Of a stretch of 64,000 nucleotides of DNA, positions 534 to 50,983 are shown one piece after another. The notes beneath the pieces were generated by a model. The model had not been told where the DNA came from. It saw only the letters and a list, made by a program, of their open reading frames with translations, and made no database searches. The translations under genes were made by a program, and so were the position numbers. How positions within the stretch are numbered: the stretch's first letter is position 1; each line of letters opens with the position of its first letter. Source of the stretch: a bacterium (lineage in GTDB: Bacteria > Patescibacteriota > CPR2 > UBA1875 > JAJYID01); the NCBI GenBank assembly GCA_021787535.1, contig JAJYLR010000002.1, positions 24,556-88,555 of the forward strand, in the 5' to 3' direction.

Positions 534-623
534 GGTGAGGTGGCCGAGTGGTTGAAGGCAGCAGTCTTGAAAACTGCCGTGCCGGCAACGGTACCGTGGG
601 TTCGAATCCCACCCTCACCGCCA
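534..623 (+). tRNA. tRNA-Ser (anticodon TGA)
   Basis: GGTGAGG..CCCTCACC acceptor stem, anticodon loop CTTGAAA, long variable arm, T-arm GGTTCGAATCC, encoded CCA end. Confidence 0.85.
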
Positions 624-4135: not shown

Positions 4136-4157
4136 AAGGCCTAGCTGGCCTTTTTTG
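4136..4157 (+). terminator. rho-independent terminator after Hsp20 gene
   Basis: AAGGCC-tagct-GGCCTT hairpin followed by TTTTTT. Confidence 0.6.
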
Positions 4158-4411
4158 TTTACCCATAAAAACCTGAACACCCTCACCTTTGTCATTCCGG
4201 ACTATTCCTTTAAAAAACATAATCAGTTGATCCGGCATCCAGTGTAAAGAATGATTCTGGCCAAGCTCTTCGAGTCTGAGCGATGAGTTCACCTCAGAGT
4301 CGAAAACCGCTCGCCACTAGCGTGGAGTTGGCCGGAATGACAGTGCAGGTGATATTAAATTGAATTTCCGGATTTACGGATAAAAAATTTGGAAAATTTG
4401 GAAAATGGGGG

Positions 4412-4440
4412 TTGACAAATAGTAGACAATTATATAAAAT
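4412..4440 (+). promoter_or_regulatory. sigma70-type promoter with flanking 10-bp inverted repeat
   Basis: TTGACA, 17 nt, TAAAAT (within TATATAAAAT), about 30 nt upstream of ATG 4470. GACAATTAT..ATAATTGTC inverted repeat brackets the -10/TSS. Confidence 0.6.
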
Positions 4441-4469
4441 CACAATGATATAATAATTGTCTTCTAAAC

Positions 4470-5555
4470 ATGGATATAAAAGAGTTAATAATAAAGAGAT
4501 TGAATACTGCGGGTGAGGTTCGGGTTGCTGATATTGTAGATGAAACATCTTTCTCCCGAAAATACATTCACCGTTTTTTTGATGAACTTCAGAAGGAAAA
4601 TAAGATAGCAAAAATTGGCACGACAAAGGCTGCCAGGTATGTATTTTCCAGTCATCAAAAGGTTTTTGAAGCTAAAAAAAATATTATAAAGATAGATCTT
4701 CTTTTAAAAAATAGAGGGCTCAAAGAAGATTTGGTTGAAGATAAAATCAAGGAAGATACGGGTATCTTTATCGGATTATCAAAAGAAGTGAAGGCAGCGG
4801 CAGACTTTGCTTTCTTGGAAATACTTAACAACGCTATTGAGCACTCAAAAAGTGAAAACATTCGCGTCACTATGTCGAGGATGGAAAACAAGCTTATTTT
4901 TGACATTTTTGATTGGGGAGTAGGCGTATTTGCCAGTATTAGAAAAAAGAAGGGGCTCCAAAATGATCTTGAAGCTATCCAAGATCTTTTAAAAGGAAAG
5001 GAAACAACTAACCCGGCAAGACACACGGGGCAAGGAATTTTTTTTACTGCGCGTATCGCTGATAGGTTTATTCTATATAGTTCGAAAAAAAAGCTGATTT
5101 TTGATAATAATATCGATGATGTTTTCTTGAAAGATTCTCCCGCCAGAAAGGGTACAAGGGCTCATTTTGAAGTTGCTCTGGATACAAAGAAGAAATCGGA
5201 AGAAATTTTTAGGCGTTATTCGGATCCTGACTCTTATGAATTCTCAAAAACCGAGGTAATGATCCATCTCTACAAAATGGATATTGGCTACATATCTCGT
5301 TCTCAGGCGAGAAGAGTAACGGCGGGGCTTGAAAAATTTAAATCGGTCGTGTTGGACTTTAGCAGGGTGGATACGATTGGACAAGGTTTTGCCGATGAAG
5401 TTTTTCGCGTATGGCAGAAAAGGAATCCGAAAACAAGGATCTCCTATAAAAATGCTGATGAAAATGTGCAGTTTATGATAGAGCGTGCAAAATCAGATTT
5501 AAAGAATCATTTTGATCGGCACCAAAAAAAACAAAACAAAGATATTGACAAATGA
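4470..5555 (+). CDS. wHTH - GHKL (RsbW/SpoIIAB-like HATPase_c) - STAS-like (DUF4325-type) fusion regulator
   Basis: N-terminal winged-helix-like region. GHKL N-box EILNNAIEHS, G1 DWGVG, G2 GQGIFF. C-terminal about 100 aa STAS-like segment (VVLDFSRVDTIGQGFADEVF). Confidence 0.6.
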   Translation: MDIKELIIKRLNTAGEVRVADIVDETSFSRKYIHRFFDELQKENKIAKIGTTKAARYVFSSHQKVFEAKKNIIKIDLLLKNRGLKEDLVEDKIKEDTGIFIGLSKEVKAAADFAFLEILNNAIEHSKSENIRVTMSRMENKLIFDIFDWGVGVFASIRKKKGLQNDLEAIQDLLKGKETTNPARHTGQGIFFTARIADRFILYSSKKKLIFDNNIDDVFLKDSPARKGTRAHFEVALDTKKKSEEIFRRYSDPDSYEFSKTEVMIHLYKMDIGYISRSQARRVTAGLEKFKSVVLDFSRVDTIGQGFADEVFRVWQKRNPKTRISYKNADENVQFMIERAKSDLKNHFDRHQKKQNKDIDK

Positions 5556-5691
5556 GCTGTTTTATGATATCTTAATATAACCGATTCTCGAAAATCGGAG
5601 CAAGCAAGTTCTTTGAAAATAATTGAGATGTATGTTTCCCTGTTTTTCCGCCTATTGGCGATTCCGATATTCAAACAAAGGAGTGATTTGC

Positions 5692-6483
5692 ATGAAAACG
5701 ACAAAATGGATATTTGCATTAGCAGCACTCGTCATTATCGCAATTTTGGCTGTTACCACCACCGGCTGCGGTAGCGACAACGGCACCGCCCGGGCCGGCA
5801 ACTCACCGACAACCGAAAACAGCAGTGGCCCGAATGGCCAGAACGGCCCCAAGCCCGATAAGATCAGTATGCTGAGCGACAAGTGGAGTAAGGTGACCAC
5901 TGCCAAAGCCGCTCTGGAAAATGCGGTATTTGCGGCTGAAGCGAATGAAACCGGCGGAGACGCTTATTTCAAGGATAGCCAAGCGAGGGAATTCACAAAG
6001 AATGTCGATGACGCGCAAGCAGCATTCGATTCCGCCTTGAAAGAGTATATCCAGCTCGCATCCGGCGTTGATGCGCAAGGGCTTACTGACAGCGGCTTGC
6101 CGACCATTGACGGCGATCATCTGATATTGGACAACGACTTAAAGCCATCTTGGGATGCTGCCGTAGACGCAGACAAGCAGATACAGGTCTTGGCGGGGAC
6201 TATGTGCAAATCAAAATGCTATGCCCTCAGCGATCCAAAGTATCAGAGCCAAGTACAGGACGCTTTGAGCAAGTGGCAAACGGCCGCCAAAAACTACAAC
6301 GAGCAGGCAGCCAAGTTCAAGAGCGACCTTCTGGTTGCCTATAGCTACCCTGTATCGTTGGATGTCTCTTTCAAAATGAGCGCGATTGATGGAATTGATA
6401 AATATGGCGACACTGGATACACAACACCAATGGCATCCATTCGCTATGCGCTGGAGAATAACCAGCCGCTGCCCAGCGGTTAA
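5692..6483 (+). CDS. secreted lipoprotein, unknown function
   Basis: RBS AAGGAG before ATG 5692. Signal peptide plus lipobox-like VTTTGC. Ala/Asp/Gln-rich mature region. The ORF track start 5623 lacks an RBS. Confidence 0.6.
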   Translation: MKTTKWIFALAALVIIAILAVTTTGCGSDNGTARAGNSPTTENSSGPNGQNGPKPDKISMLSDKWSKVTTAKAALENAVFAAEANETGGDAYFKDSQAREFTKNVDDAQAAFDSALKEYIQLASGVDAQGLTDSGLPTIDGDHLILDNDLKPSWDAAVDADKQIQVLAGTMCKSKCYALSDPKYQSQVQDALSKWQTAAKNYNEQAAKFKSDLLVAYSYPVSLDVSFKMSAIDGIDKYGDTGYTTPMASIRYALENNQPLPSG

Positions 6484-6505
6484 GTAACAGCATTACATCT
6501 CAAAA

Positions 6506-6536
6506 AAAGGCCCCATTCCGGGGCCTTTTGTTTTTT
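6506..6536 (+). terminator. rho-independent terminator
   Basis: GGCCCC-attcc-GGGGCC hairpin followed by TTTTGTTTTTT. Confidence 0.75.
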
Positions 6537-6589
6537 CATTTTAGTTTTTATACTTTACAAAAGAAACAGAAAATCATTATAATACGCTT

Positions 6590-7150
6590 ATGAACACTTT
6601 TGGCATGAAGCTTGGCTCATTAACACTTGCTTTTTTGTTTTCAATGTTTGTGGTAATCTGTTTCCCCAGCATTCGGCTTCAAAGTGTTGACGCAGCAACC
6701 CCTCTTTGCAACAACACACAAGATCCTAATTCTCCACCAGGTTGTTCTCAAACACCCGTTTGCCCGTCGGGTAAGTATTATATACCTAGTCAAGATCCCA
6801 AAAAACCTGATGAAGCTTGCGTTCCACCCCCTTGTGATAATCAAAACCCTGATTATGATAATCCAGACTGTGTCAAACAAACTTTTAAATCAGTTTCCGG
6901 CGGATTTGATTTCGGCAATGCCAACAGCTTCAAAGATGTCGGCAAGACCATAATAGACACAGCCGGCGGTATTATTCTGGGAGTCGCAGTTCTCAAAATA
7001 ATTTTCGGCGGCATAATGTATTCAACCGCAGCCGGCAATCCCCAGCGAATAGAAGAAGCAAAGAGTCATATCTACTATGCCCTTATCGGCGTAGCCCTGC
7101 TTGTAGGCATGAATATTTTACTCTTTTTAATCGGAGCCCAAACATACTAG
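6590..7150 (+). CDS. T4SS pilin-like protein (VirB2/TrbC-like), paralog 1, with Cys/Pro-rich N-terminal extension
   Basis: Signal peptide. C-terminal TM - MYSTAAGNPQRIEEAK - TM module shared with the two following ORFs. Confidence 0.55.
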   Translation: MNTFGMKLGSLTLAFLFSMFVVICFPSIRLQSVDAATPLCNNTQDPNSPPGCSQTPVCPSGKYYIPSQDPKKPDEACVPPPCDNQNPDYDNPDCVKQTFKSVSGGFDFGNANSFKDVGKTIIDTAGGIILGVAVLKIIFGGIMYSTAAGNPQRIEEAKSHIYYALIGVALLVGMNILLFLIGAQTY

Positions 7151-7157
7151 CTATCCC

Positions 7158-7517
7158 ATGAAAATGAAAGAGTTAGAAAGATACAAAAAAATATTTTCCA
7201 GAACAACATTTCTTGCCCCTGGGCTTTATGTTCCTAACTTTGGTGGTCCGCTTTTGGGTGGGTGCAATATGAATGATCCAAATACTGGTGATATGCAATG
7301 TATTGTCAACAATATCACAAGTTGGGTCCTTGGACTTGCCGGCCTTGTTATAGTGTTAATGATTGTTATAGCCGGTGTCAGATATATTGTTTCGGCTGGC
7401 AACCCAAATCAAACTGAAGGCGCAAAAAAAACTCTTGTCGGCGCTATAATAGGGCTTATAATAATTATATTGGCAAAGGTTTTGATATCAATCGTCGTGA
7501 AACTTATTACAGGATAA
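7158..7517 (+). CDS. T4SS pilin-like protein (VirB2/TrbC-like), paralog 2
   Basis: TM - RYIVSAGNPNQTEGAKKTL - TM. Same conserved core as neighbours. Confidence 0.6.
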   Translation: MKMKELERYKKIFSRTTFLAPGLYVPNFGGPLLGGCNMNDPNTGDMQCIVNNITSWVLGLAGLVIVLMIVIAGVRYIVSAGNPNQTEGAKKTLVGAIIGLIIIILAKVLISIVVKLITG

Positions 7518-7616
7518 TCTCAGCTTTTAGCAAATTGTTAAATTAATTAAACAAACTAAGTTAGCTCTTTCTCAATTAATGAATACTGAGAAGAGACATA
7601 AAGGAGGTATAAAAAA

Positions 7617-7949
7617 ATGAAAGCAAAAATTACAGCGGCATCGATGGCAATAAGCCAGTTTATTTTAGCTGCTAGTGTGCGAGCGCAATCAAACCCAAAT
7701 CCACTACCGCAACCGCACAGTTCAGATCTAGGGCCAATTCTGCAAAACGTGATAAACTGGATTTTGGGCATAGCCGGTTTGCTGGCAGTGCTTATGCTTG
7801 TTATCGGCGGTATCAGATATGTGATTTCGGCCGGCAATCCGTCACAGACAGAGGGAGCAAAGAAAACCATTATCTACTCACTTGTAGGCATAGTGGTCAT
7901 CATACTCGCCGTTGTCTTGGTCAATACGGTTATAGGCCTGTTTCACTAA
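7617..7949 (+). CDS. T4SS pilin-like protein (VirB2/TrbC-like), paralog 3
   Basis: Strong RBS AAAGGAGG. Signal peptide. TM - RYVISAGNPSQTEGAKKTI - TM. Confidence 0.6.
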   Translation: MKAKITAASMAISQFILAASVRAQSNPNPLPQPHSSDLGPILQNVINWILGIAGLLAVLMLVIGGIRYVISAGNPSQTEGAKKTIIYSLVGIVVIILAVVLVNTVIGLFH

Positions 7950-8001
7950 AATCATCGGTAGAGGATAGAAATACCAAATTGTTCTTGCTCTTTAAACGCT
8001 C

Positions 8002-10017
8002 GTGTTATATATTTTTAATATGAGGGTGAGTTTATCTGAAAAAGCATTTATAAAGAGATTATCAAAAAAACGGACTGCTCAGGTTCTGCTTCCGTTTTTT
8101 TTGTTAGTAATTTTCCTGGGTGTTGCTATAACCCCGCATATTGCTTTTGCTTCCTGGTGGAATCCCATTGACTGGGTACAGGATTTTATCTCCGATTTGC
8201 TTATTGCCTTTTCTACTGCTCTTTATTTTCTAGGTTTTGGTTTAGTGAGGATAGGCGTCGATTTTACTACCTTCTTGATTAGCACGCCTGCCGTTTCTGA
8301 AAAATGGCAGCTGATGCGAAACTTTACGCTGACCATTTTCGGACTCTTCATAATCATTATCGCCGCCATGAATATCCTGAAAGTCAAGATAGAGGAGTGG
8401 GGAGTAAATAAAATGATCCCCAAGCTTGCTCTGGCTGCCTTTGTGGTCATGTTTTCAAAGTATGTCTGCATTACCATAGTGAACTTCTCTAACATTATCT
8501 CAAGTGTCGTGGCATCCTCAATGAACTTTAATCTCTTTCAGCCATTCAGCCAGTTGGGCGACATGTTTGCCAACTTCTGCCAGGACTGTGCCTCTGGACC
8601 AAAATTATATGCAGCTTGGCTCCTTTTATTGGTCTCTGTAATCGGCTTCATTTTTTTAGCTGCTTTATTCCTTATCTTGCTTATAAGGGCCCTGGTTCTG
8701 ATATTGCTGATTGTAGTCTCGCCACTTGCTTTCGCGCTTTATGTCTTACCCTGGACTAACAAGGTCTTCACTAAGTGGTGGGACATGTTCCTGAAGTGGA
8801 CTTTCTTCTATCCGATATGTCTGACAATTCTTGTCATAGGGGTATCTCTGTCTATGGACGCGCATAATACCGGTGGCAATCAGGTAAACAGTATTATGTC
8901 AGGGATTCTAAAATCGGTACCCTTGTTCGGTAACGATGCTGCGACTCAGATGGCTCCAGTCATGGCCCAATTCGCCTTTACTATGATAGCTTTTCTTACT
9001 ATACCTCTGGCAATGATTCTGCCGCTTTCACTTCTAGGGCAGGCAGGTAAAATGATCAACAATGCAATGAAAGGAGCCGGTAAGGCCGCGGGTGGGAAAG
9101 CATATAAGAGCAGTGTCATCCCCGGTGTCAGACGCAGTCCGAAGGCGTTGCTGCAAGCAGGAATGCGCAGAGGACTTCGGCCGTTTGGCTCCCGCGGCCC
9201 GAAACTCGGCTATGGCTATGACAAGATGCGAGATATGAATAGGGAGATGGTGAAAGAGATTAGTAAGACTCCTTTAAGCAAAGAGGAGAGGCGAAACTAC
9301 GCCAGAGGCCTTTTAGGCCGTGGTTCTCCTGCATTTAATAATCTATCAAACGAGAAACAGGCATGGATTAGGGATTTTGAAACAAAAGGCGGGGGCAGGA
9401 ACGAGATGATAGATTACCTTGCAGACAAAGGGGAAATAAATGCCGGGGTTATTGCGAATCCGCAAGTACAGCAGCGCTTGCAACAAACTGGAGACTGGAA
9501 TAAAGCCATAAGAGACGGTAAGCTTTTCCATGTTAATATGCACGATTCCCAAGGTGGAGAACTACAATATTACGGCAATGGAGATCCAATCATGATGCCA
9601 ACTAATCTAAATGAAGAAGGTCTCGGTCCAGTATCTGAAATGATTACCCCCAGCATTAATCAACTTCAGACCACCCAGCTAGCTGGACCGCAAGCCATAA
9701 CAGATGAAAACCTAGGACTTCTTGCCCGCGATCCTACCAAAGCCAAGTTTTTGTCAGATTATCGAGATTCTATTCATGATAGAATTGGAAATGTCCAAGA
9801 TGGTGATGTGCATCAACAAACAGCGGCTCAAATAAACGCTGAACTTCAAAGAAAGGAAAATGTCATCAACAACCTTCTTGGGCAAGCAGCACCGGGCGGA
9901 GGACAGGGACAAGGCGGTCAAGCGCAAGGACAACCTCAAGTGATAGTTCCTCATGTTGGACAAGGAAATCGCGATAACCCCCATCAGGATGATATCCCGC
10001 CAAACAGAAGATTATAA
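8002..10017 (+). CDS. VirB6/TrbL-like polytopic membrane protein with Gly/Gln-rich C-terminal tail
   Basis: At least 6 predicted TM helices, large hydrophilic C-terminal extension ending in GQGQGGQAQGQ low complexity. Position between pilins and VirB3/VirB4. Confidence 0.5.
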   Translation: MLYIFNMRVSLSEKAFIKRLSKKRTAQVLLPFFLLVIFLGVAITPHIAFASWWNPIDWVQDFISDLLIAFSTALYFLGFGLVRIGVDFTTFLISTPAVSEKWQLMRNFTLTIFGLFIIIIAAMNILKVKIEEWGVNKMIPKLALAAFVVMFSKYVCITIVNFSNIISSVVASSMNFNLFQPFSQLGDMFANFCQDCASGPKLYAAWLLLLVSVIGFIFLAALFLILLIRALVLILLIVVSPLAFALYVLPWTNKVFTKWWDMFLKWTFFYPICLTILVIGVSLSMDAHNTGGNQVNSIMSGILKSVPLFGNDAATQMAPVMAQFAFTMIAFLTIPLAMILPLSLLGQAGKMINNAMKGAGKAAGGKAYKSSVIPGVRRSPKALLQAGMRRGLRPFGSRGPKLGYGYDKMRDMNREMVKEISKTPLSKEERRNYARGLLGRGSPAFNNLSNEKQAWIRDFETKGGGRNEMIDYLADKGEINAGVIANPQVQQRLQQTGDWNKAIRDGKLFHVNMHDSQGGELQYYGNGDPIMMPTNLNEEGLGPVSEMITPSINQLQTTQLAGPQAITDENLGLLARDPTKAKFLSDYRDSIHDRIGNVQDGDVHQQTAAQINAELQRKENVINNLLGQAAPGGGQGQGGQAQGQPQVIVPHVGQGNRDNPHQDDIPPNRRL

Positions 10018-10048
10018 ATCTCTCCGGTTAACTATTTAAAATGAAGAC

Positions 10049-10711
10049 ATGCAGTACAAAATACCTCAAGAGTTTAACGTCGAAGACAAGATAATCGGTC
10101 CCTTTACTTTAAAGGGATTCGGTTTCATTTTCGCTGCAGCCGTCGTAGCTTTAGTATGCGTCGTTTCTCTGTCAAAGCATATCGGCTTCATACCTTCCGT
10201 TTTGATTGGCGCACTCTTGGGCTCGGTCTTTATAATCGTCGGATTTATCCCCTTCAACGGCCGGCCGATGTATACCTTCGCATCACCCTTTATAAACTTT
10301 TTGATAAAGCCGAGACAAAGGGTCTGGAGAAGAGAGGTTGAGACGGCTAAAAAACCTCAAACAGCTAATAAACCCGCAGCAACAACCGAAGCAAAACCGG
10401 GTAATACACCGGCAAAAGCAGATGTCTCATCAATTGCAGAAAAGATCGAAGACATCGCTCTCACAGTAGACACCGGCGGAGCATATGCCGGGAGCCAGGC
10501 GGAAACAGCAGGTGATATCCTAGAGAAAGGAAGTCCTACTGTAGAGCAGGCGCTTCAGAAAGCGCAGGCCGAGGCTAGCCGAAAGAAACAGCGGCCAGAA
10601 CCGGCCATATCAGAAATGGCTAGCGTAGATCCGGACAAAAAGTTCGGCTATGAGCGTCCAGATACTTCAAAATATAAAATTGATGAGGAGTTAAAAAAGA
10701 ACAGGCAATGA
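10049..10711 (+). CDS. VirB3/PrgI-like small membrane protein
   Basis: Two N-terminal TM helices immediately upstream of VirB4. Hydrophilic Ala/Lys/Glu-rich C-terminus. Confidence 0.45.
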   Translation: MQYKIPQEFNVEDKIIGPFTLKGFGFIFAAAVVALVCVVSLSKHIGFIPSVLIGALLGSVFIIVGFIPFNGRPMYTFASPFINFLIKPRQRVWRREVETAKKPQTANKPAATTEAKPGNTPAKADVSSIAEKIEDIALTVDTGGAYAGSQAETAGDILEKGSPTVEQALQKAQAEASRKKQRPEPAISEMASVDPDKKFGYERPDTSKYKIDEELKKNRQ

Positions 10712-11457
10712 ATCCTTTTAAGAAAAAACAAACTGGGGCAAACCCGCAGTCATTCGAAAGCACCCAGAAGTACCTGGCCATCGACCAGATTAAAGACGAT
10801 GTTTTGCTAATGAAAGACGGCTCTTTGAGAGGTGTGCTTATGGTTTCCAGCATTAATATGTCTCTGCGCTCGGAACAAGAACAGTCATCAATCATTTATG
10901 CCTATCAAAACGCTTTAAATTCTTTGGATTTTCCTGTACAAATCCTAGTGCAATCAAGAAAAGTTGATCTCACCTCCTACATGGCGATACTGGAAAAAGA
11001 ATATGAGAAGGAGGCGCCCGGACTTTTGAAAGATCAGATTCAAGAATACATTAGCTTCCTGCAGCAGATCTTGGAAAGCGTCAATGTCATGGACAAACGT
11101 TTTTTCGTGACAGTTCCATACTTTCCCAATGTCATTCAGGAAAGCTCAAAAGGCGTACTTTCTATAGTGGGTTTAGGGAAAAAGGCGAACCCCGTCTCCC
11201 AAAGCCAGCGCAACTACAGTATAAACCTTGACCAGTTAAACCAGAGGTTGGATATCGTTACCTCCCTTCTTTCCACTATAGAGCTAAAAGCATCGCGCCT
11301 GCCTACAGAGGCCCTTATAGAGCTTTTTTACGTCTGCTACAATCCTGAAACAGCCGGCCATGAGCATATAAAAAATCTGGACAGCTTTGGGGCAAAGTAC
11401 ATTACAAGGAGAGAATCGCTTGGAGGTAATACGATAGGTGGCGGGTATGCTGGATAA
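10708..11457 (+). CDS. VirB4/TrbE-family ATPase, N-terminal domain fragment (frame 1)
   Basis: Pattern YLAIDQIKDDVLLMKDGSLRGVLMVSSIN..SEQEQ resembles the VirB4 N-terminal region. Overlaps the next ORF by 20 nt in a different frame. Confidence 0.5.
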   Translation: MNPFKKKQTGANPQSFESTQKYLAIDQIKDDVLLMKDGSLRGVLMVSSINMSLRSEQEQSSIIYAYQNALNSLDFPVQILVQSRKVDLTSYMAILEKEYEKEAPGLLKDQIQEYISFLQQILESVNVMDKRFFVTVPYFPNVIQESSKGVLSIVGLGKKANPVSQSQRNYSINLDQLNQRLDIVTSLLSTIELKASRLPTEALIELFYVCYNPETAGHEHIKNLDSFGAKYITRRESLGGNTIGGGYAG

Positions 11458-13240
11458 GTTTCTGAAGAAGAGCCAGCCAACCCAGGAAGAGATCCTTGCC
11501 ACGCAAAAGGTGCAGGCCTTCCAGCGGGGAATAAGCACAATACGCGATCTTATAGCCCCTGCTTCATTTGCAAAAAACTTTAACTATCTGCAGATTGGGG
11601 AAACATATGCCAGAACTCTCTTCGTATATGAATATCCCAGATTTTTGTATTCCGGCTGGATATCTCCCATTATTAATATTGACATTCGACTTGATCTTTC
11701 AATATTTATCTATCCTGAAGATTCCCAGGATGTGGCCAAAAAACTGCGCGCCAAATCCACTCAAGTAGAATCCTCGATCAATATGGAGGCAGATAAAGGG
11801 CTGGCGAGAAATCCCACGCTTGAAGCGACTTATCAGGATATCGAGGAACTGAGAGACAAACTTCTCACCGGACAGTCCAAAATGTTCAAACAGGGTATGT
11901 ATATCACGGTTTACGAAGACTCGCTGGACGAGCTGAACGAATGCACAAAGATTTTGGAAAATATGCTTGGAACAGAAATGGTTTTTACCAAGCATGCTTC
12001 CCTTCAAATGGAGGAGGGTTTTAACTCCACGCTGCCAATGGGGCTGGATCAGCTCATGTACAATCGCAATATGGACACAGAGGCAATCTCCGTATCTTTT
12101 CCTTTTGTTTCATCGACTTTAACCAGTAACGAGGGTATTCTCTACGGAGCCAACAAGTCAAACAACAGTTTAATTATCTTCGACCGCTTTAAGCTGCAAA
12201 ACTACAATTCCGTTGTTCTGGCTTCCTCGGGAGCAGGAAAATCATATACAGTGAAGCTGGAGATATTAAGACAGCTTATGTTTGACGCGGATGTTATAGT
12301 GATTGACCCTGAAAAAGAGTTTGAAACTTTATGCCAAACTGTTGGCGGATCATATATAAATATCCATTTGAATTCAAAGGAGGTCGTAAATCCTTTCGAC
12401 CTACCCCAAAATCTGACCGATTATGATGACCAAAAAGATGCCCTCCGAAGCAATATCATTATTCTGACGGGGCTCCTTAGAGTTATGATGGGCAAACTCA
12501 CAGATGAGGAAAGCAATATCCTGGACAAGGCGCTGGTGGAAACATATGCTTCGAAGGGTATAACAGAAGATCCGTCAACCCATCACCTGACTCCGCCTAT
12601 CATGAGCGATTTAAAGAGTATCTTAGAAAGCATAAACGGAGGCGAGAGTATGGCCCTTCGCCTGGGCAAATTCACGGAAGGGACATTCTCGGGTCTCTTT
12701 AATGATTACACCAACATTTCGCTGGGCAATAGGATGGTCTGCTTTTCTATCCGAGACCTGGAAGAGGATTTGAGGCCGATTGCCATGTATTCCATACTGA
12801 ACTTCATCTGGAATAAGGTTAAAAGCGATAAGAAAAAAAGAATTCTGGTGGTTGATGAGGCCTGGACTATGATGAAATATGAAGACTCGGCCCAATTCCT
12901 TTACGCCATAGCAAAAAGAGGCAGAAAATATTACCTGGGCATGACTACTATCGGCCAGGACATCGGCGACTTTTTAAAGAGCGAGTACGGGAAACCTTTG
13001 ATTTCAAACGCTTCAATGGCTCTGCTTTTGAAGCAGCATCCTTCGCAGGTTGAGCTTATTAAAGAAGTATTCGACCTAACAGATTCTGAGAAAAACTATC
13101 TGCTGCAATGCGGAGTCGGTGAAGGGCTTTTTGTCGCCGGGCTAAACCATGCTCTAATACAAATCATCAGTTCGGAAAAAGAAGACTCAATCGTCACTAC
13201 TAATCCCGAGCAGTTAAAATCAATGCAGGGAGGAGCTTAA
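11438..13240 (+). CDS. VirB4/TrbE/CagE-family T4SS ATPase (C-terminal 600 aa, frame 2)
   Basis: Walker A LASSGAGKSYTVK, Walker B ILVVDEAWTMM, IAPASF..IGETYARTLFV segment typical of the family. Confidence 0.8.
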   Translation: MAGMLDKFLKKSQPTQEEILATQKVQAFQRGISTIRDLIAPASFAKNFNYLQIGETYARTLFVYEYPRFLYSGWISPIINIDIRLDLSIFIYPEDSQDVAKKLRAKSTQVESSINMEADKGLARNPTLEATYQDIEELRDKLLTGQSKMFKQGMYITVYEDSLDELNECTKILENMLGTEMVFTKHASLQMEEGFNSTLPMGLDQLMYNRNMDTEAISVSFPFVSSTLTSNEGILYGANKSNNSLIIFDRFKLQNYNSVVLASSGAGKSYTVKLEILRQLMFDADVIVIDPEKEFETLCQTVGGSYINIHLNSKEVVNPFDLPQNLTDYDDQKDALRSNIIILTGLLRVMMGKLTDEESNILDKALVETYASKGITEDPSTHHLTPPIMSDLKSILESINGGESMALRLGKFTEGTFSGLFNDYTNISLGNRMVCFSIRDLEEDLRPIAMYSILNFIWNKVKSDKKKRILVVDEAWTMMKYEDSAQFLYAIAKRGRKYYLGMTTIGQDIGDFLKSEYGKPLISNASMALLLKQHPSQVELIKEVFDLTDSEKNYLLQCGVGEGLFVAGLNHALIQIISSEKEDSIVTTNPEQLKSMQGGA

Positions 13241-50908: not shown

Positions 50909-50983
50909 TCCCGGGTAGCTCAATGGTAGAGCAGTTGACTGTTAATCAATTGGTTGCCGGTTCGAGTCCGGCCCCGGGAGCCA
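50909..50983 (+). tRNA. tRNA-Asn (anticodon GTT)
   Basis: TCCCGGG/CCCGGGA acceptor, D-loop AGCTCAATGGTAGAGC, anticodon loop CTGTTAA, T-arm GGTTCGAGTCC, encoded CCA. Confidence 0.85.

What the first reader, a model, noticed from the sequence alone, without database searches (positions are those of the whole stretch)
4140..5555. Single-polypeptide partner-switching-like regulator (wHTH + RsbW-like GHKL ATPase + STAS) with palindromic promoter
The 361-aa protein fuses a DNA-binding winged helix, an anti-sigma-factor-type serine kinase fold (N-box ENAIEH, G1 DWGVG, G2 GQGIFF) and a STAS-like antagonist domain that are normally separate proteins. A strong TTGACA-17-TAAAAT promoter is bracketed by a GACAATTAT/ATAATTGTC inverted repeat, suggesting autoregulation. 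The mRNA leader is only about 25 nt with no SD. Upstream, an 11-bp perfect inverted repeat (TGTCATTCCGG 4190-4200 / CCGGAATGACA 4332-4342) and a tandem TTTGGAAAAT x2 occupy a 330-bp non-coding stretch.
Basis: partly seen in the sequence, partly recalled or inferred. Interest (0 to 1): 0.55.

Follow-up and report, generated by a model that had tools for sequence, protein, structure and literature searches.

The report
Self-regulating wHTH–kinase–STAS regulator with conserved operator
This gene encodes one member of a large, uncharacterised family of stand-alone bacterial regulators that join a DNA-binding domain to an anti-sigma-type kinase domain and its usual partner domain in one chain, and every member carries the same repeated binding motif in its own promoter, which marks it as a self-contained, self-regulating switch whose signal is still unknown.

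Summary
ORF 4470-5555 encodes a 361-aa protein with three domains:
- an N-terminal winged helix;
- a C-terminal STAS domain (Pfam DUF4325, E 2e-15; fold matches RsbS and SpoIIAA).

The promoter palindrome is one instance of a family-wide operator of 9-11 bp sites, T[T/A][G/T]ACAA[C/T]T. Typically two tandem copies overlap the -35 and one inverted copy follows the -10. The motif is about 35-fold enriched upstream of 78 homologues. Its variable base tracks residues of the winged-helix wing, and a prediction made from that link held.

The family is large (627 clusters at 50% identity, at least 594 species). It occurs in Patescibacteria and many other phyla, always at about 340 aa, and has no conserved neighbour gene.

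The canonical STAS phosphorylation position holds an invariant Gln, so classical partner switching is doubtful. My best reading is an autorepressed one-component regulator gated by an ATP-dependent GHKL-STAS module. The closest characterised analogues are CapK/CapS (2026) and Rv1364c.

The 153-nt inverted-repeat element upstream is lineage-specific and unrelated.

Verdict: a new variant of a known kind, of moderate to high interest.

The parts
4136..4160 (+). Hairpin AAGGCC-TAGCT-GGCCTT followed by TTTTGTTT. This is the likely intrinsic terminator of the upstream hsp20 gene, so the regulator is its own transcription unit.
   Evidence: The sequence was read directly. The same hairpin was listed by the scan on the minus strand. 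hsp20 was identified by Pfam.
4412..4420 (+). Operator site 1, TTGACAAAT. It contains the -35 hexamer TTGACA (4412-4417).
   Evidence: Identical in relatives L082 and L085. Matches the family motif.
4423..4431 (+). Operator site 2, TAGACAATT. It is a direct repeat of site 1, 11 bp downstream of it, and lies in the promoter spacer.
4435..4440 (+). -10 hexamer TAAAAT of promoter P1. P1 scores 11/12 with a 17-nt spacer.
4446..4454 (+). TGATATAAT, a candidate extended -10 (P2). It would give a leader of about 8 nt.
   Evidence: Read from the sequence. TGTTATAAT sits at the same place in L082. In the main clade a TATAAT likewise sits directly before the inverted site. This is an inference.
4455..4463 (-). 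Operator site 3. It reads AAGACAATT on the minus strand, is the inverted copy, and covers the start of the transcript.
   Evidence: (pair I4). The equivalent in other clades is AAAGTTGTCAAC.
4470..5555 (+). Gene for the 361-aa wHTH-GHKL-STAS protein, stop codon included.
4470..4649 (+). Winged helix-turn-helix, residues 1-60. The recognition helix is about residues 30-42 and the wing about 46-59.
4683..5219 (+). GHKL ATP-binding domain of the RsbW/SpoIIAB class, residues about 72-250. N-box E117/N121/H125, G1 D148xGxG, G2 G187xG189, and G228-T229.
5235..5504 (+). STAS domain (Pfam DUF4325), residues 256-345. Invariant S276-R277-S278 and R282. Invariant Gln305 at the canonical phosphosite position. 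T302 lies three residues before it.
   Evidence: The domain-only AF2 model has pLDDT 87.7. Foldseek top hits are RsbS, SpoIIAA, the stressosome and SLC26/YchM STAS domains. Conservation. Weak profile alignment to VapS.
5545..5573 (+). Promoter-like site TTGACA-17-TATCTT with TG, overlapping the stop codon and facing the downstream lipoprotein and type IV secretion pilin genes. Its -35 region, TTGACAAAT, is identical to operator site 1 but has no partner sites.
   Evidence: (family D11). Whether the regulator binds here was not tested.

Best explanation
The gene encodes a stand-alone, autorepressed one-component regulator.

DNA binding. The winged helix binds 9-11 bp sites with the consensus T[T/A][G/T]ACAA[C/T]T. 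In this window there are three: two direct copies 11 bp apart (TTGACAAAT, TAGACAATT), one holding the -35 and the other lying in the spacer, and one inverted copy (AATTGTCTT) over the transcript start. Several protomers bound there would shut off the promoter.

The switch. The rest of the protein is a built-in switch. An RsbW/SpoIIAB-type ATP-binding kinase domain is tethered by a flexible linker to a STAS domain. I infer that ATP binding or phosphotransfer within this module, triggered by an unknown signal, changes oligomerisation or DNA affinity and derepresses the promoter. CapK-dependent phosphorylation does this to CapS. ssDNA or another anion bound at the invariant Arg-rich STAS face is one candidate signal.

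Outputs. These would be the protein itself, genes transcribed with it, and in some genomes other promoters that carry the same operator.

Shown: the domain identities, the invariant ATP-site residues, the conserved operator and its covariation with wing residues, and the solitary genomic context.

Inferred: repression, the ATP-gated switch, the signal, and the nature and site of any phosphorylation.
For: 1. Domains are established by profile and by fold.
2. ATP-site residues N121, H125, D148, G150, G152, G187, G189 and G228 are invariant in 116 sequences; E117 is conserved in 112/116 and T229 in 115/116.
3. Operator enrichment: the regex T[TA][GTA]ACAA[CT] gives 19.8 hits/kb in the -140..-1 region of 78 homologous loci against 0.56/kb elsewhere. 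65 of 78 loci have at least 2 hits and 47 of 78 have at least 3.
4. Operator architecture: the main-clade consensus is tAtACAACTtGTTGACAACTT - spacer - TATAAT - AAAGTTGTcAAC, so the sites overlap the -35 and the +1.
5. The operator is conserved between the window, L082 and L085, although the flanks and the genomic context differ.
6. Specificity link: ACAAC operators go with L48/A52/N53 and A31, and ACAAT operators with K48/T52/R-K53 and Q31. The window protein (K48/T52/K53) has ACAAT/ACAAA sites. P0089, predicted from its wing (GRTKT) to use ACAAT, does so.
7. No conserved neighbour was found in 80 loci.
8. Operators with the full architecture also occur just after the stop codon of the gene, and in front of other genes on contigs where no family gene was detected.
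9. Experimental precedent: CapK phosphorylates CapS, which releases it from palindromic operators (PMC13373217). Rv1364c autophosphorylates its own fused STAS domain (cited in PMC7693655).
Against: - There is no experimental data for any member.
- The canonical STAS phosphoacceptor position is an invariant Gln. T302 is hydrophobic in 17% of members, so a CapS-like phosphoswitch at the usual site is excluded, and any phosphosite (S276, S278 or T302) is guesswork.
- The docking of STAS on the GHKL domain could not be inspected, because the tool returns neither coordinates nor PAE.
- No second operator cluster exists in the 64-kb window, so here the only visible target is the gene itself, and the physiological output is unexplained.
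- The covariation is partly confounded by phylogeny.
Confidence: 0.55

Rival explanations
1. DNA-tethered anti-sigma factor. The SpoIIAB-like domain sequesters or handles a sigma factor, possibly the primary sigma factor, at promoters. The fused STAS domain acts as an intramolecular antagonist. The winged helix places the protein on -35-like sites. This would be classical partner switching compressed into one chain.
For: - The best fold matches are all anti-sigma kinases.
- The operator sites contain -35-like hexamers: TTGACA, TTTACA, TAGACA.
- In two loci (L079; L228 = P0089) the gene overlaps the start of dnaG and is followed by rpoD. In L062, dnaG-rpoD lies 2.4 kb away.
- One operator copy precedes a sigma-70 region-4 fragment (L159).
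Against: - No sigma gene is conserved next to the family. Only 2-3 of about 86 loci are near rpoD.
- The canonical phospho-Ser is replaced by Gln.
- No PP2C phosphatase partner was seen.
- Sigma binding cannot be assessed from sequence.
Confidence: 0.15
2. Stress or immune regulator of the CapK/CapS or VapKSC type. It would be a DNA-damage (ssDNA)-activated kinase module controlling a defence or toxin gene, here with kinase and repressor fused.
For: - The same three domain types occur in CapK, and the GHKL-to-STAS kinase logic has been proven experimentally (PMC13373217).
- DUF4325 genes are coupled to PIN.4 VapC toxins (PMC5499597).
- VapS (9Z7O) is the top PDB hit of the STAS profile, though not significant at E = 0.12.
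- Some tightly linked downstream genes act on DNA or nucleotides: Pyr_excise, HolA x2, NUDIX x2, DnaG x2, Ham1.
Against: - No PADLOC hit.
- No effector, toxin or immune operon is conserved next to it, and contexts are housekeeping genes.
- The domain order differs: wHTH-GHKL-STAS here, HTH-STAS-GHKL in CapK.
- No separate CapS-like gene is present.
- The phosphosite is Gln.
- Rare in viral contigs and absent from the plasmid and phage collections.
Confidence: 0.15
3. Component of a mobile or selfish element. One version is a replication-initiator-like protein that binds iterons. Another is a gene cassette bounded by repeated operator units.
For: - Direct repeats with a helical period resemble iterons.
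- In L038, L119, L122, L136 and L154 an operator unit lies on both sides of the gene, with start-to-start spacing of 1091 nt in four of them and 1215 nt in L119.
- L106 and L110 carry a deletion remnant: the operator followed by only the last 47 codons.
- The distribution across phyla is patchy while identity stays at 40-55%.
- GC is slightly low: 36.6% against 41.6% for the window.
Against: - No hits in 72,556 plasmids or 50,697 phages, and only 18 hits in 2.9 million viral contigs.
- No integrase, transposase or replication genes are conserved nearby.
- The repeats sit exactly on a promoter.
- The GHKL-STAS architecture has no precedent in Rep proteins.
Confidence: 0.05

Closest known systems
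CapK + CapS (Chambers et al., EMBO J 2026, PMC13373217) and the related VapKSC toxin-antitoxin system
   Same: The same three domain types are used: an HTH, an anti-sigma-type GHKL kinase and a STAS domain. CapK itself carries all three in one chain. The DNA-binding component represses its own promoter through repeated half-sites. The logic is a kinase-STAS module controlling a winged-helix repressor.
   Different: - The domain order here is wHTH-GHKL-STAS, whereas CapK is HTH-STAS-GHKL and CapS is STAS-wHTH.
- This is one gene rather than two.
- There is no adjacent immune operon or toxin.
- The serine that CapS and VapS require is an invariant Gln here.
- Sequence similarity is insignificant (best PDB profile hit is VapS, E = 0.12).
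- The signal is unknown.
Mycobacterium tuberculosis Rv1364c (PAS, PP2C phosphatase, RsbW-like kinase and STAS in one polypeptide)
   Different: Rv1364c has no DNA-binding domain, and it has PAS and PP2C domains that this protein lacks. It acts on SigF. Nothing equivalent is known here.
SpoIIAB/SpoIIAA and RsbW/RsbV partner-switching pairs
   Same: The fold and the catalytic motifs of the kinase (N-box, G1, G2) match, as does the STAS fold of the partner.
   Different: Those are separate proteins. Their output is sequestration of a sigma factor, and they depend on a conserved phospho-Ser at the N-terminus of STAS helix alpha-2, which is Gln305 here. No sigma factor or PP2C partner is conserved nearby.
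Enzyme-repressor fusions with an N-terminal winged helix (archaeal RbkR; BirA)
   Same: An N-terminal winged helix is fused to a nucleotide-binding catalytic domain, so that one chain both senses and represses. RbkR (5TRD) is the top full-length Foldseek hit.
   Different: The catalytic domains are unrelated. The Foldseek match has a TM-score of only 0.15-0.24, so it reflects the winged helix rather than the whole protein.

Membership tests
Pfam PF14213 DUF4325 (STAS-like) | Match to the family HMM above the gathering score | tested here: met
   56.6 bits against a cut-off of 23, E 2.1e-15, residues 279-334 covering profile positions 1-64 of 64.
Pfam PF13581 HATPase_c_2 (anti-sigma-type GHKL) | Match to the family HMM above the gathering score | tested here: met
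   29.8 bits against a cut-off of 27.4. The margin is small, but fold searches support it.
Partner-switching kinase/antagonist modules (SpoIIAB-SpoIIAA, RsbW-RsbV) | Kinase domain with the RsbW/SpoIIAB fold and intact N-box, G1 and G2 residues | tested here: met
Partner-switching kinase/antagonist modules (SpoIIAB-SpoIIAA, RsbW-RsbV) | Antagonist with the STAS fold | tested here: met
   The domain model has pLDDT 87.7. Top Foldseek hits are RsbS 6JHK, SpoIIAA 1H4Y and the stressosome, with probability 0.97-1.0 and query-normalised TM-score about 0.66.
Partner-switching kinase/antagonist modules (SpoIIAB-SpoIIAA, RsbW-RsbV) | Conserved phosphorylatable Ser/Thr at the N-terminus of STAS helix alpha-2 | tested here: not met
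   Helix alpha-2 starts at Q305, and Q305 is invariant in 116/116. The profile alignment places the position I equate with VapS S48 opposite Q305. That equivalence assumes the 134-residue chain carries an 18-residue tag on the 116-residue protein. T302, three residues earlier, is Ser/Thr in 96/116. The residue-level equivalence with SpoIIAA S58 rests on my memory of its sequence plus the secondary-structure register. It was not checked by a structural superposition.
Partner-switching kinase/antagonist modules (SpoIIAB-SpoIIAA, RsbW-RsbV) | Cognate sigma factor and/or PP2C phosphatase encoded with the module | tested here: not met
   No gene family recurs next to the gene in 80 loci. No Pfam family occurs in more than 2 of 103 flanking proteins. 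rpoD lies downstream in only 2 loci.
   The order here is wHTH-GHKL-STAS in one ORF. The downstream genes are unrelated. The definition is taken from PMC13373217.
CapK/CapS regulators | Location directly upstream of an immune or stress operon | tested here: not met
   No PADLOC hit for the protein itself. Neighbours are heterogeneous housekeeping genes. The neighbours themselves were not scanned with PADLOC.
CapK/CapS regulators | Kinase activated by ssDNA; phosphorylation releases the repressor from DNA | not testable with these tools
   This needs biochemistry. Only the analogy is available.
Rv1364c-type multidomain regulators | PAS sensor and PP2C phosphatase domains N-terminal to the kinase-STAS pair | tested here: not met
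   No PAS or PP2C/SpoIIE match at E <= 10. The N-terminus is a winged helix.
Winged-helix one-component transcription regulators | wHTH fold plus a cognate, conserved DNA site in its own promoter | tested here: met

The most novel reading that the evidence does not exclude
The family is a previously unrecognised, self-contained ATP-gated switch of uncultured bacteria. Its STAS domain has given up the phospho-serine (invariant Gln305) and instead uses an invariant Ser/Arg-rich face (S276-R277-S278, R282) to sense a ligand such as ssDNA or a nucleotide. Its winged helix sits on -35-like hexamers. In some lineages it heads the dnaG-rpoD operon, so it would couple a stress or DNA-status signal directly to the supply of primase and primary sigma factor, as a DNA-tethered relative of anti-sigma factors.
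Probability: 0.12. Interest if true: 0.8.

Novelty: new variant of a known kind. Interest (0 to 1): 0.6.

Why it matters
Patescibacteria and many other uncultured phyla have few recognisable transcription factors, and almost nothing is known about how they sense stress.

This family offers a compact model for how a partner-switching kinase-STAS pair can be rewired into a one-component regulator:
- It is large: 627 clusters at 50% identity at E <= 1e-30, in at least 594 species representatives.
- It is strongly conserved: 40-55% identity across phyla, with constant length.
- Its DNA site can be read from sequence alone.

It extends the CapK/CapS principle published in 2026 to a different architecture that is not linked to immune operons. 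It also raises a clear biochemical question: what does a STAS domain with Gln at the phosphosite do next to an intact kinase?

The operator and the wing-residue code give immediate handles for EMSA, reporter assays and regulon prediction in metagenome-assembled genomes.

Tried and rejected
1. Defence system. PADLOC gave no hit, no conserved effector was found, and plasmid and phage tblastn gave no match. Rejected as the primary reading.
2. Conserved operon partner. All-against-all clustering of 879 flanking ORFs from 80 loci found nothing recurrent, and no Pfam family occurs more than twice among 103 immediate neighbours.
3. Heat-shock link through the upstream hsp20. It is seen only in the window and its 85%-identical relative, and not in the 75% relative L085.
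4. Link to the downstream type IV secretion pilin cluster. It is lineage-specific synteny only.
5. Regulon within the window. There is no second cluster of exact sites in 64 kb. Relaxed 7/8 matching gave 17 clusters against 8.5 in shuffles, and the two I inspected were AT-rich low-complexity sequence.
6. T302 as the SpoIIAA-like phosphosite. This was my first guess from the 'DT-G' motif. I dropped it after the conservation count (83%) and the helix register placed the canonical position at Q305.
7. Upstream inverted-repeat element 4190-4342 as part of the regulator. It is absent from L082 and has no Rfam match.
8. PDB sequence search with the whole protein. No hits at E <= 10.
9. The AFDB fold library was not available.
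10. Literature. 'DUF4325' appears in only three papers, and none describes this family.
Full report
**What is there**

ORF 4470-5555 on the + strand encodes a 361-aa protein.
- Pfam finds a C-terminal DUF4325 STAS-like domain (residues 279-334, E 2.1e-15) and a central HATPase_c_2 domain (residues 102-202, 29.8 bits, cut-off 27.4). Only sub-threshold winged-helix hits appear at the N-terminus.
- An AlphaFold2 model built on 36 homologues (mean pLDDT 79.7) gives a confident H-H-H-E-E winged helix at residues 3-59. It also gives a GHKL alpha/beta sandwich and a beta-alpha-beta-alpha-beta-alpha C-terminal domain. Confidence is low only in the ATP-lid loop (177-188) and in the linker before the last domain (251-260).
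- A separate model of residues 256-343 (pLDDT 87.7) has RsbS, SpoIIAA, the stressosome and SLC26/YchM STAS domains as its best matches.

**The promoter**

The scan finds TTGACA (4412), 17 nt, TAAAAT (4435), scoring 11 of 12.

It is more informative to read the region as three copies of one short site:
- TTGACAAAT at 4412;
- TAGACAATT at 4423, a direct copy one helical turn later;
- AATTGTCTT at 4455, an inverted copy.

The pattern WGACAAWT is not enriched in the window overall (13 matches against 14.8 expected). These three copies are nevertheless the only cluster of exact sites in 64 kb.

A second possible -10, the extended TGATATAAT at 4446-4454, lies directly before the inverted site. Depending on which promoter is used, the leader is about 23 nt or about 8 nt. 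There is no Shine-Dalgarno sequence, but that is unremarkable here, since only 20 of 44 large ORFs in the window have one.

A hairpin followed by a T-run at 4136-4160 after hsp20 suggests the gene is transcribed on its own.

**The family**

- The word-indexed search returned 4567 proteins at E <= 0.001. The best 120 are all about 340 aa with the same Pfam content. Names, where present, are 'DUF4325 domain-containing protein' or 'anti-sigma regulatory factor'.
- The exhaustive search of 50%-identity representatives gives 627 clusters at E <= 1e-30 and 2133 at 1e-3.
They are not only Patescibacteria. They include Omnitrophota, Planctomycetota, Syntrophaceae, Nitrospirota, Ignavibacteria (on a 2.47-Mb contig), Melainabacteria and others, at 40-54% identity to the query.
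- Among the listed hits every record that carries a name is a metagenome-assembled genome.
- The family is rare in viral contigs (18 hits) and absent from the plasmid and cultured-phage collections.

**No partner gene**

I called ORFs in 80 loci with 6-kb flanks and clustered them. Apart from the family itself, the largest cluster has 10 members scattered at different positions.

Among 103 immediately flanking proteins no Pfam family occurs more than twice. Further annotated contexts are equally varied.

Tightly linked downstream genes are heterogeneous: PfkB, pyrimidine-dimer glycosylase, HolA, NUDIX, GDSL lipase, YgjP and DnaG.

**The operator is a family trait**

Upstream of nearly every homologue lies the same short motif. 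With the regex T[TA][GTA]ACAA[CT], the density is 19.8 hits/kb in -140..-1 against 0.56/kb in the rest of the loci. 65 of 78 loci have at least two hits and 47 have at least three.

In the main clade the layout is tAtACAACTtGTTGACAACTT, a spacer, TATAAT, then AAAGTTGTcAAC. That is a tandem pair whose second copy holds the -35, and an inverted copy that starts right after the -10. In a more divergent clade three to six direct copies of TTTACAATT fill the same space.

The window's closest relatives keep the operator almost base for base while everything upstream diverges. One of them (L085, 75% protein identity) sits in a different genomic context.

Sites overlapping both the -35 and the +1 are the classical geometry of repression. 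That step is inference.

**Specificity link**

Loci were split by whether their sites read ACAAC (36 loci) or ACAAT (25 loci). Among the protein columns most informative for this split are residues of the recognition helix and the wing:

| Residue | ACAAC class | ACAAT class |
|---|---|---|
| 53 | N in 32/36 | R or K in 19/25 |
| 52 | A in 30/36 | T in 22/25 |
| 48 | L in 28/36 | K in 22/25 |
| 31 | A in 24/36 | Q in 21/25 |

. Phylogeny confounds this comparison. However, the window's subclade is closer overall to the listed ACAAC-class loci (44-54% identity) than to the divergent direct-repeat clade (about 40-44%), yet it carries K48/T52/K53 and ACAAT/ACAAA sites.

I then predicted that P0089, whose wing reads GRTKT, would have ACAAT sites. 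Its upstream region reads TACAATTGGTTGACAATTA ... TATAAT GTAATTGTAAAC. This supports direct recognition of the motif by the winged helix.

**Targets beyond itself**

- Several loci carry two promoter-operator units in tandem.
- In L038 and L052 a unit follows the stop codon directly.
- An exact 18-mer of the main-clade operator was scanned against metagenome contigs. Of 84 matches, 34 lie upstream of a family gene, 5 lie just after one, 5 are at contig ends and about 40 are elsewhere.
- Most of the last group look like chance matches. About ten keep the full architecture in front of other genes: Ham1, a zincin-like peptidase, a protein that by eye looks like a thiolase (not tested against Pfam), a membrane protein and a sigma-70 region-4 fragment. 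Two (L106, L110) are deletion remnants holding the operator plus only the last 47 codons.

A small and variable regulon is therefore plausible in some genomes. In this window none is visible.

**The kinase-STAS module**

The ATP-site residues N121, H125, D148, G150, G152, G187, G189 and G228 are invariant in 116 sequences. E117 is conserved in 112/116 and T229 in 115/116. The domain is therefore under selection to bind ATP and probably to transfer phosphate.

The STAS domain is different from the textbook case:
- Its second helix starts at Q305, the position of the phospho-serine in SpoIIAA, RsbS and RsbV. That equivalence comes from my knowledge of those structures.
- Q305 is invariant in all 116 sequences.
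- The only PDB sequence the STAS profile reaches is VapS (E 0.12, not significant). That alignment places the residue I take to be VapS S48 opposite Q305, assuming an 18-residue tag on the deposited chain.
- T302, three residues earlier, is Ser/Thr in 96 of 116 members and hydrophobic in nearly all of the rest.
- S276, R277, S278 and R282, at the start of the first helix, are invariant.

A CapS-like switch at the usual serine is therefore excluded. The remaining options are a non-canonical phosphosite (S276, S278 or T302), or a non-phosphorylated STAS domain that docks on the kinase in a nucleotide- or ligand-dependent way. I could not examine docking, because the modelling tool returns no coordinates or PAE.

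**Comparison with known systems**

- *CapK/CapS* is the closest characterised system. CapK is HTH-STAS-GHKL and CapS is STAS-wHTH. ssDNA activates CapK, which phosphorylates CapS S54. This breaks the CapS dimer and releases it from palindromic operators, including its own (PMC13373217). The related VapKSC system uses the same kinase-STAS pair to control a PIN toxin. An older survey noted PIN.4 VapC genes coupled to DUF4325 genes (PMC5499597).
- *Rv1364c* shows that an RsbW-like kinase can be fused to, and phosphorylate, its own STAS domain (PMC7693655).

The present family shares the parts and probably the logic. It fails the defining features of each: domain order, a second gene, an adjacent immune operon, the conserved serine, and PAS/PP2C domains. 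I file it as a new variant of this kind, not as a member.

**A lead I could not settle**

In L079 and in the P0089 locus the gene overlaps the start of dnaG, and rpoD follows. In L062, dnaG-rpoD lies 2.4 kb away on the other strand.

Two immediate adjacencies in about 86 loci is more than I would expect by chance, on a rough estimate of my own. It remains a small number. The protein is a relative of anti-sigma factors and its sites look like -35 hexamers, so this is worth a larger count.

**The other features in the finding**

- The perfect 11-nt inverted repeat (4190-4200 / 4332-4342) is real. It bounds a 153-nt stretch that folds better than shuffles (z -3.6).
- That stretch has no Rfam match. 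It is missing from the 85%-identical relative, whose gap between hsp20 and the regulator is 107 nt. It is a lineage-specific insertion and not part of the regulator.
- The 9-nt tandem repeat (4384-4401) is not conserved either.

**Verdict**

The finding is one member of a large, uncharacterised, solitary regulator family with a readable operator. I rate it moderately to highly interesting. The mechanism of the switch and its signal remain open.

Noticed in passing
window 4190-4342: A 153-nt stretch bounded by a perfect 11-nt inverted repeat (19 nt at 84%), with an internal hairpin. It folds better than shuffles (z -3.6 on the + strand). It has no Rfam match and is absent from the 85%-identical relative L082. 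It may be a MITE-like insertion or a small RNA.
   Followed up: partly
window 5692-13240: A type IV secretion-like cluster lies downstream: a 263-aa protein with no Pfam match that I took for a lipoprotein, three T4SS_pilin/TrbC genes, a 671-aa TrbL_3-like protein and a PrgI-family protein. Its first promoter-like site (5545-5573) overlaps the regulator's stop codon and shares the 9-mer TTGACAAAT with operator site 1.
   Followed up: partly
L228 6001-9878 and L079 6001-11224: In two homologous loci the family gene overlaps the start of dnaG, and the primary sigma factor gene rpoD follows. The family gene thus takes the first position of a dnaG-rpoD operon. L062 has dnaG-rpoD convergent, 2.4 kb away.
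   Followed up: partly
L106 about 5679-5872 and L110 about 825-1018: A complete operator is followed directly by only the last 47 codons of the gene (STAS C-terminus, 64% identity). This is an internal-deletion remnant that kept its promoter.
   Followed up: no
L038 7021-7071; L119, L122, L136, L154 (second match in each): A second full promoter-operator unit sits immediately after the stop codon of the family gene. Start-to-start spacing is 1091 nt in four loci and 1215 nt in L119. In L122, L136 and L154 no ORF of at least 60 aa begins within about 130 nt after it. It could be a looping site, a small-RNA promoter or a duplication scar.
   Followed up: partly
L079 7020-9968: The DnaG primase here is 982 aa and carries an intein with a LAGLIDADG homing-endonuclease domain (Pfam Hint, Intein_splicing, LAGLIDADG_3).
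   Followed up: no
window 5505-5552 (residues 346-361): The window protein has a lysine- and glutamine-rich C-terminal tail of about 17 aa that homologues lack (they cover 94-95% of the query). The tail runs into the downstream promoter.
   Followed up: no
window 534-620, 940-1029, 50909-50980: Three tRNA genes (Rfam). Two lie close upstream of the PilB-like T2SSE ATPase gene (1145-2824).
   Followed up: no
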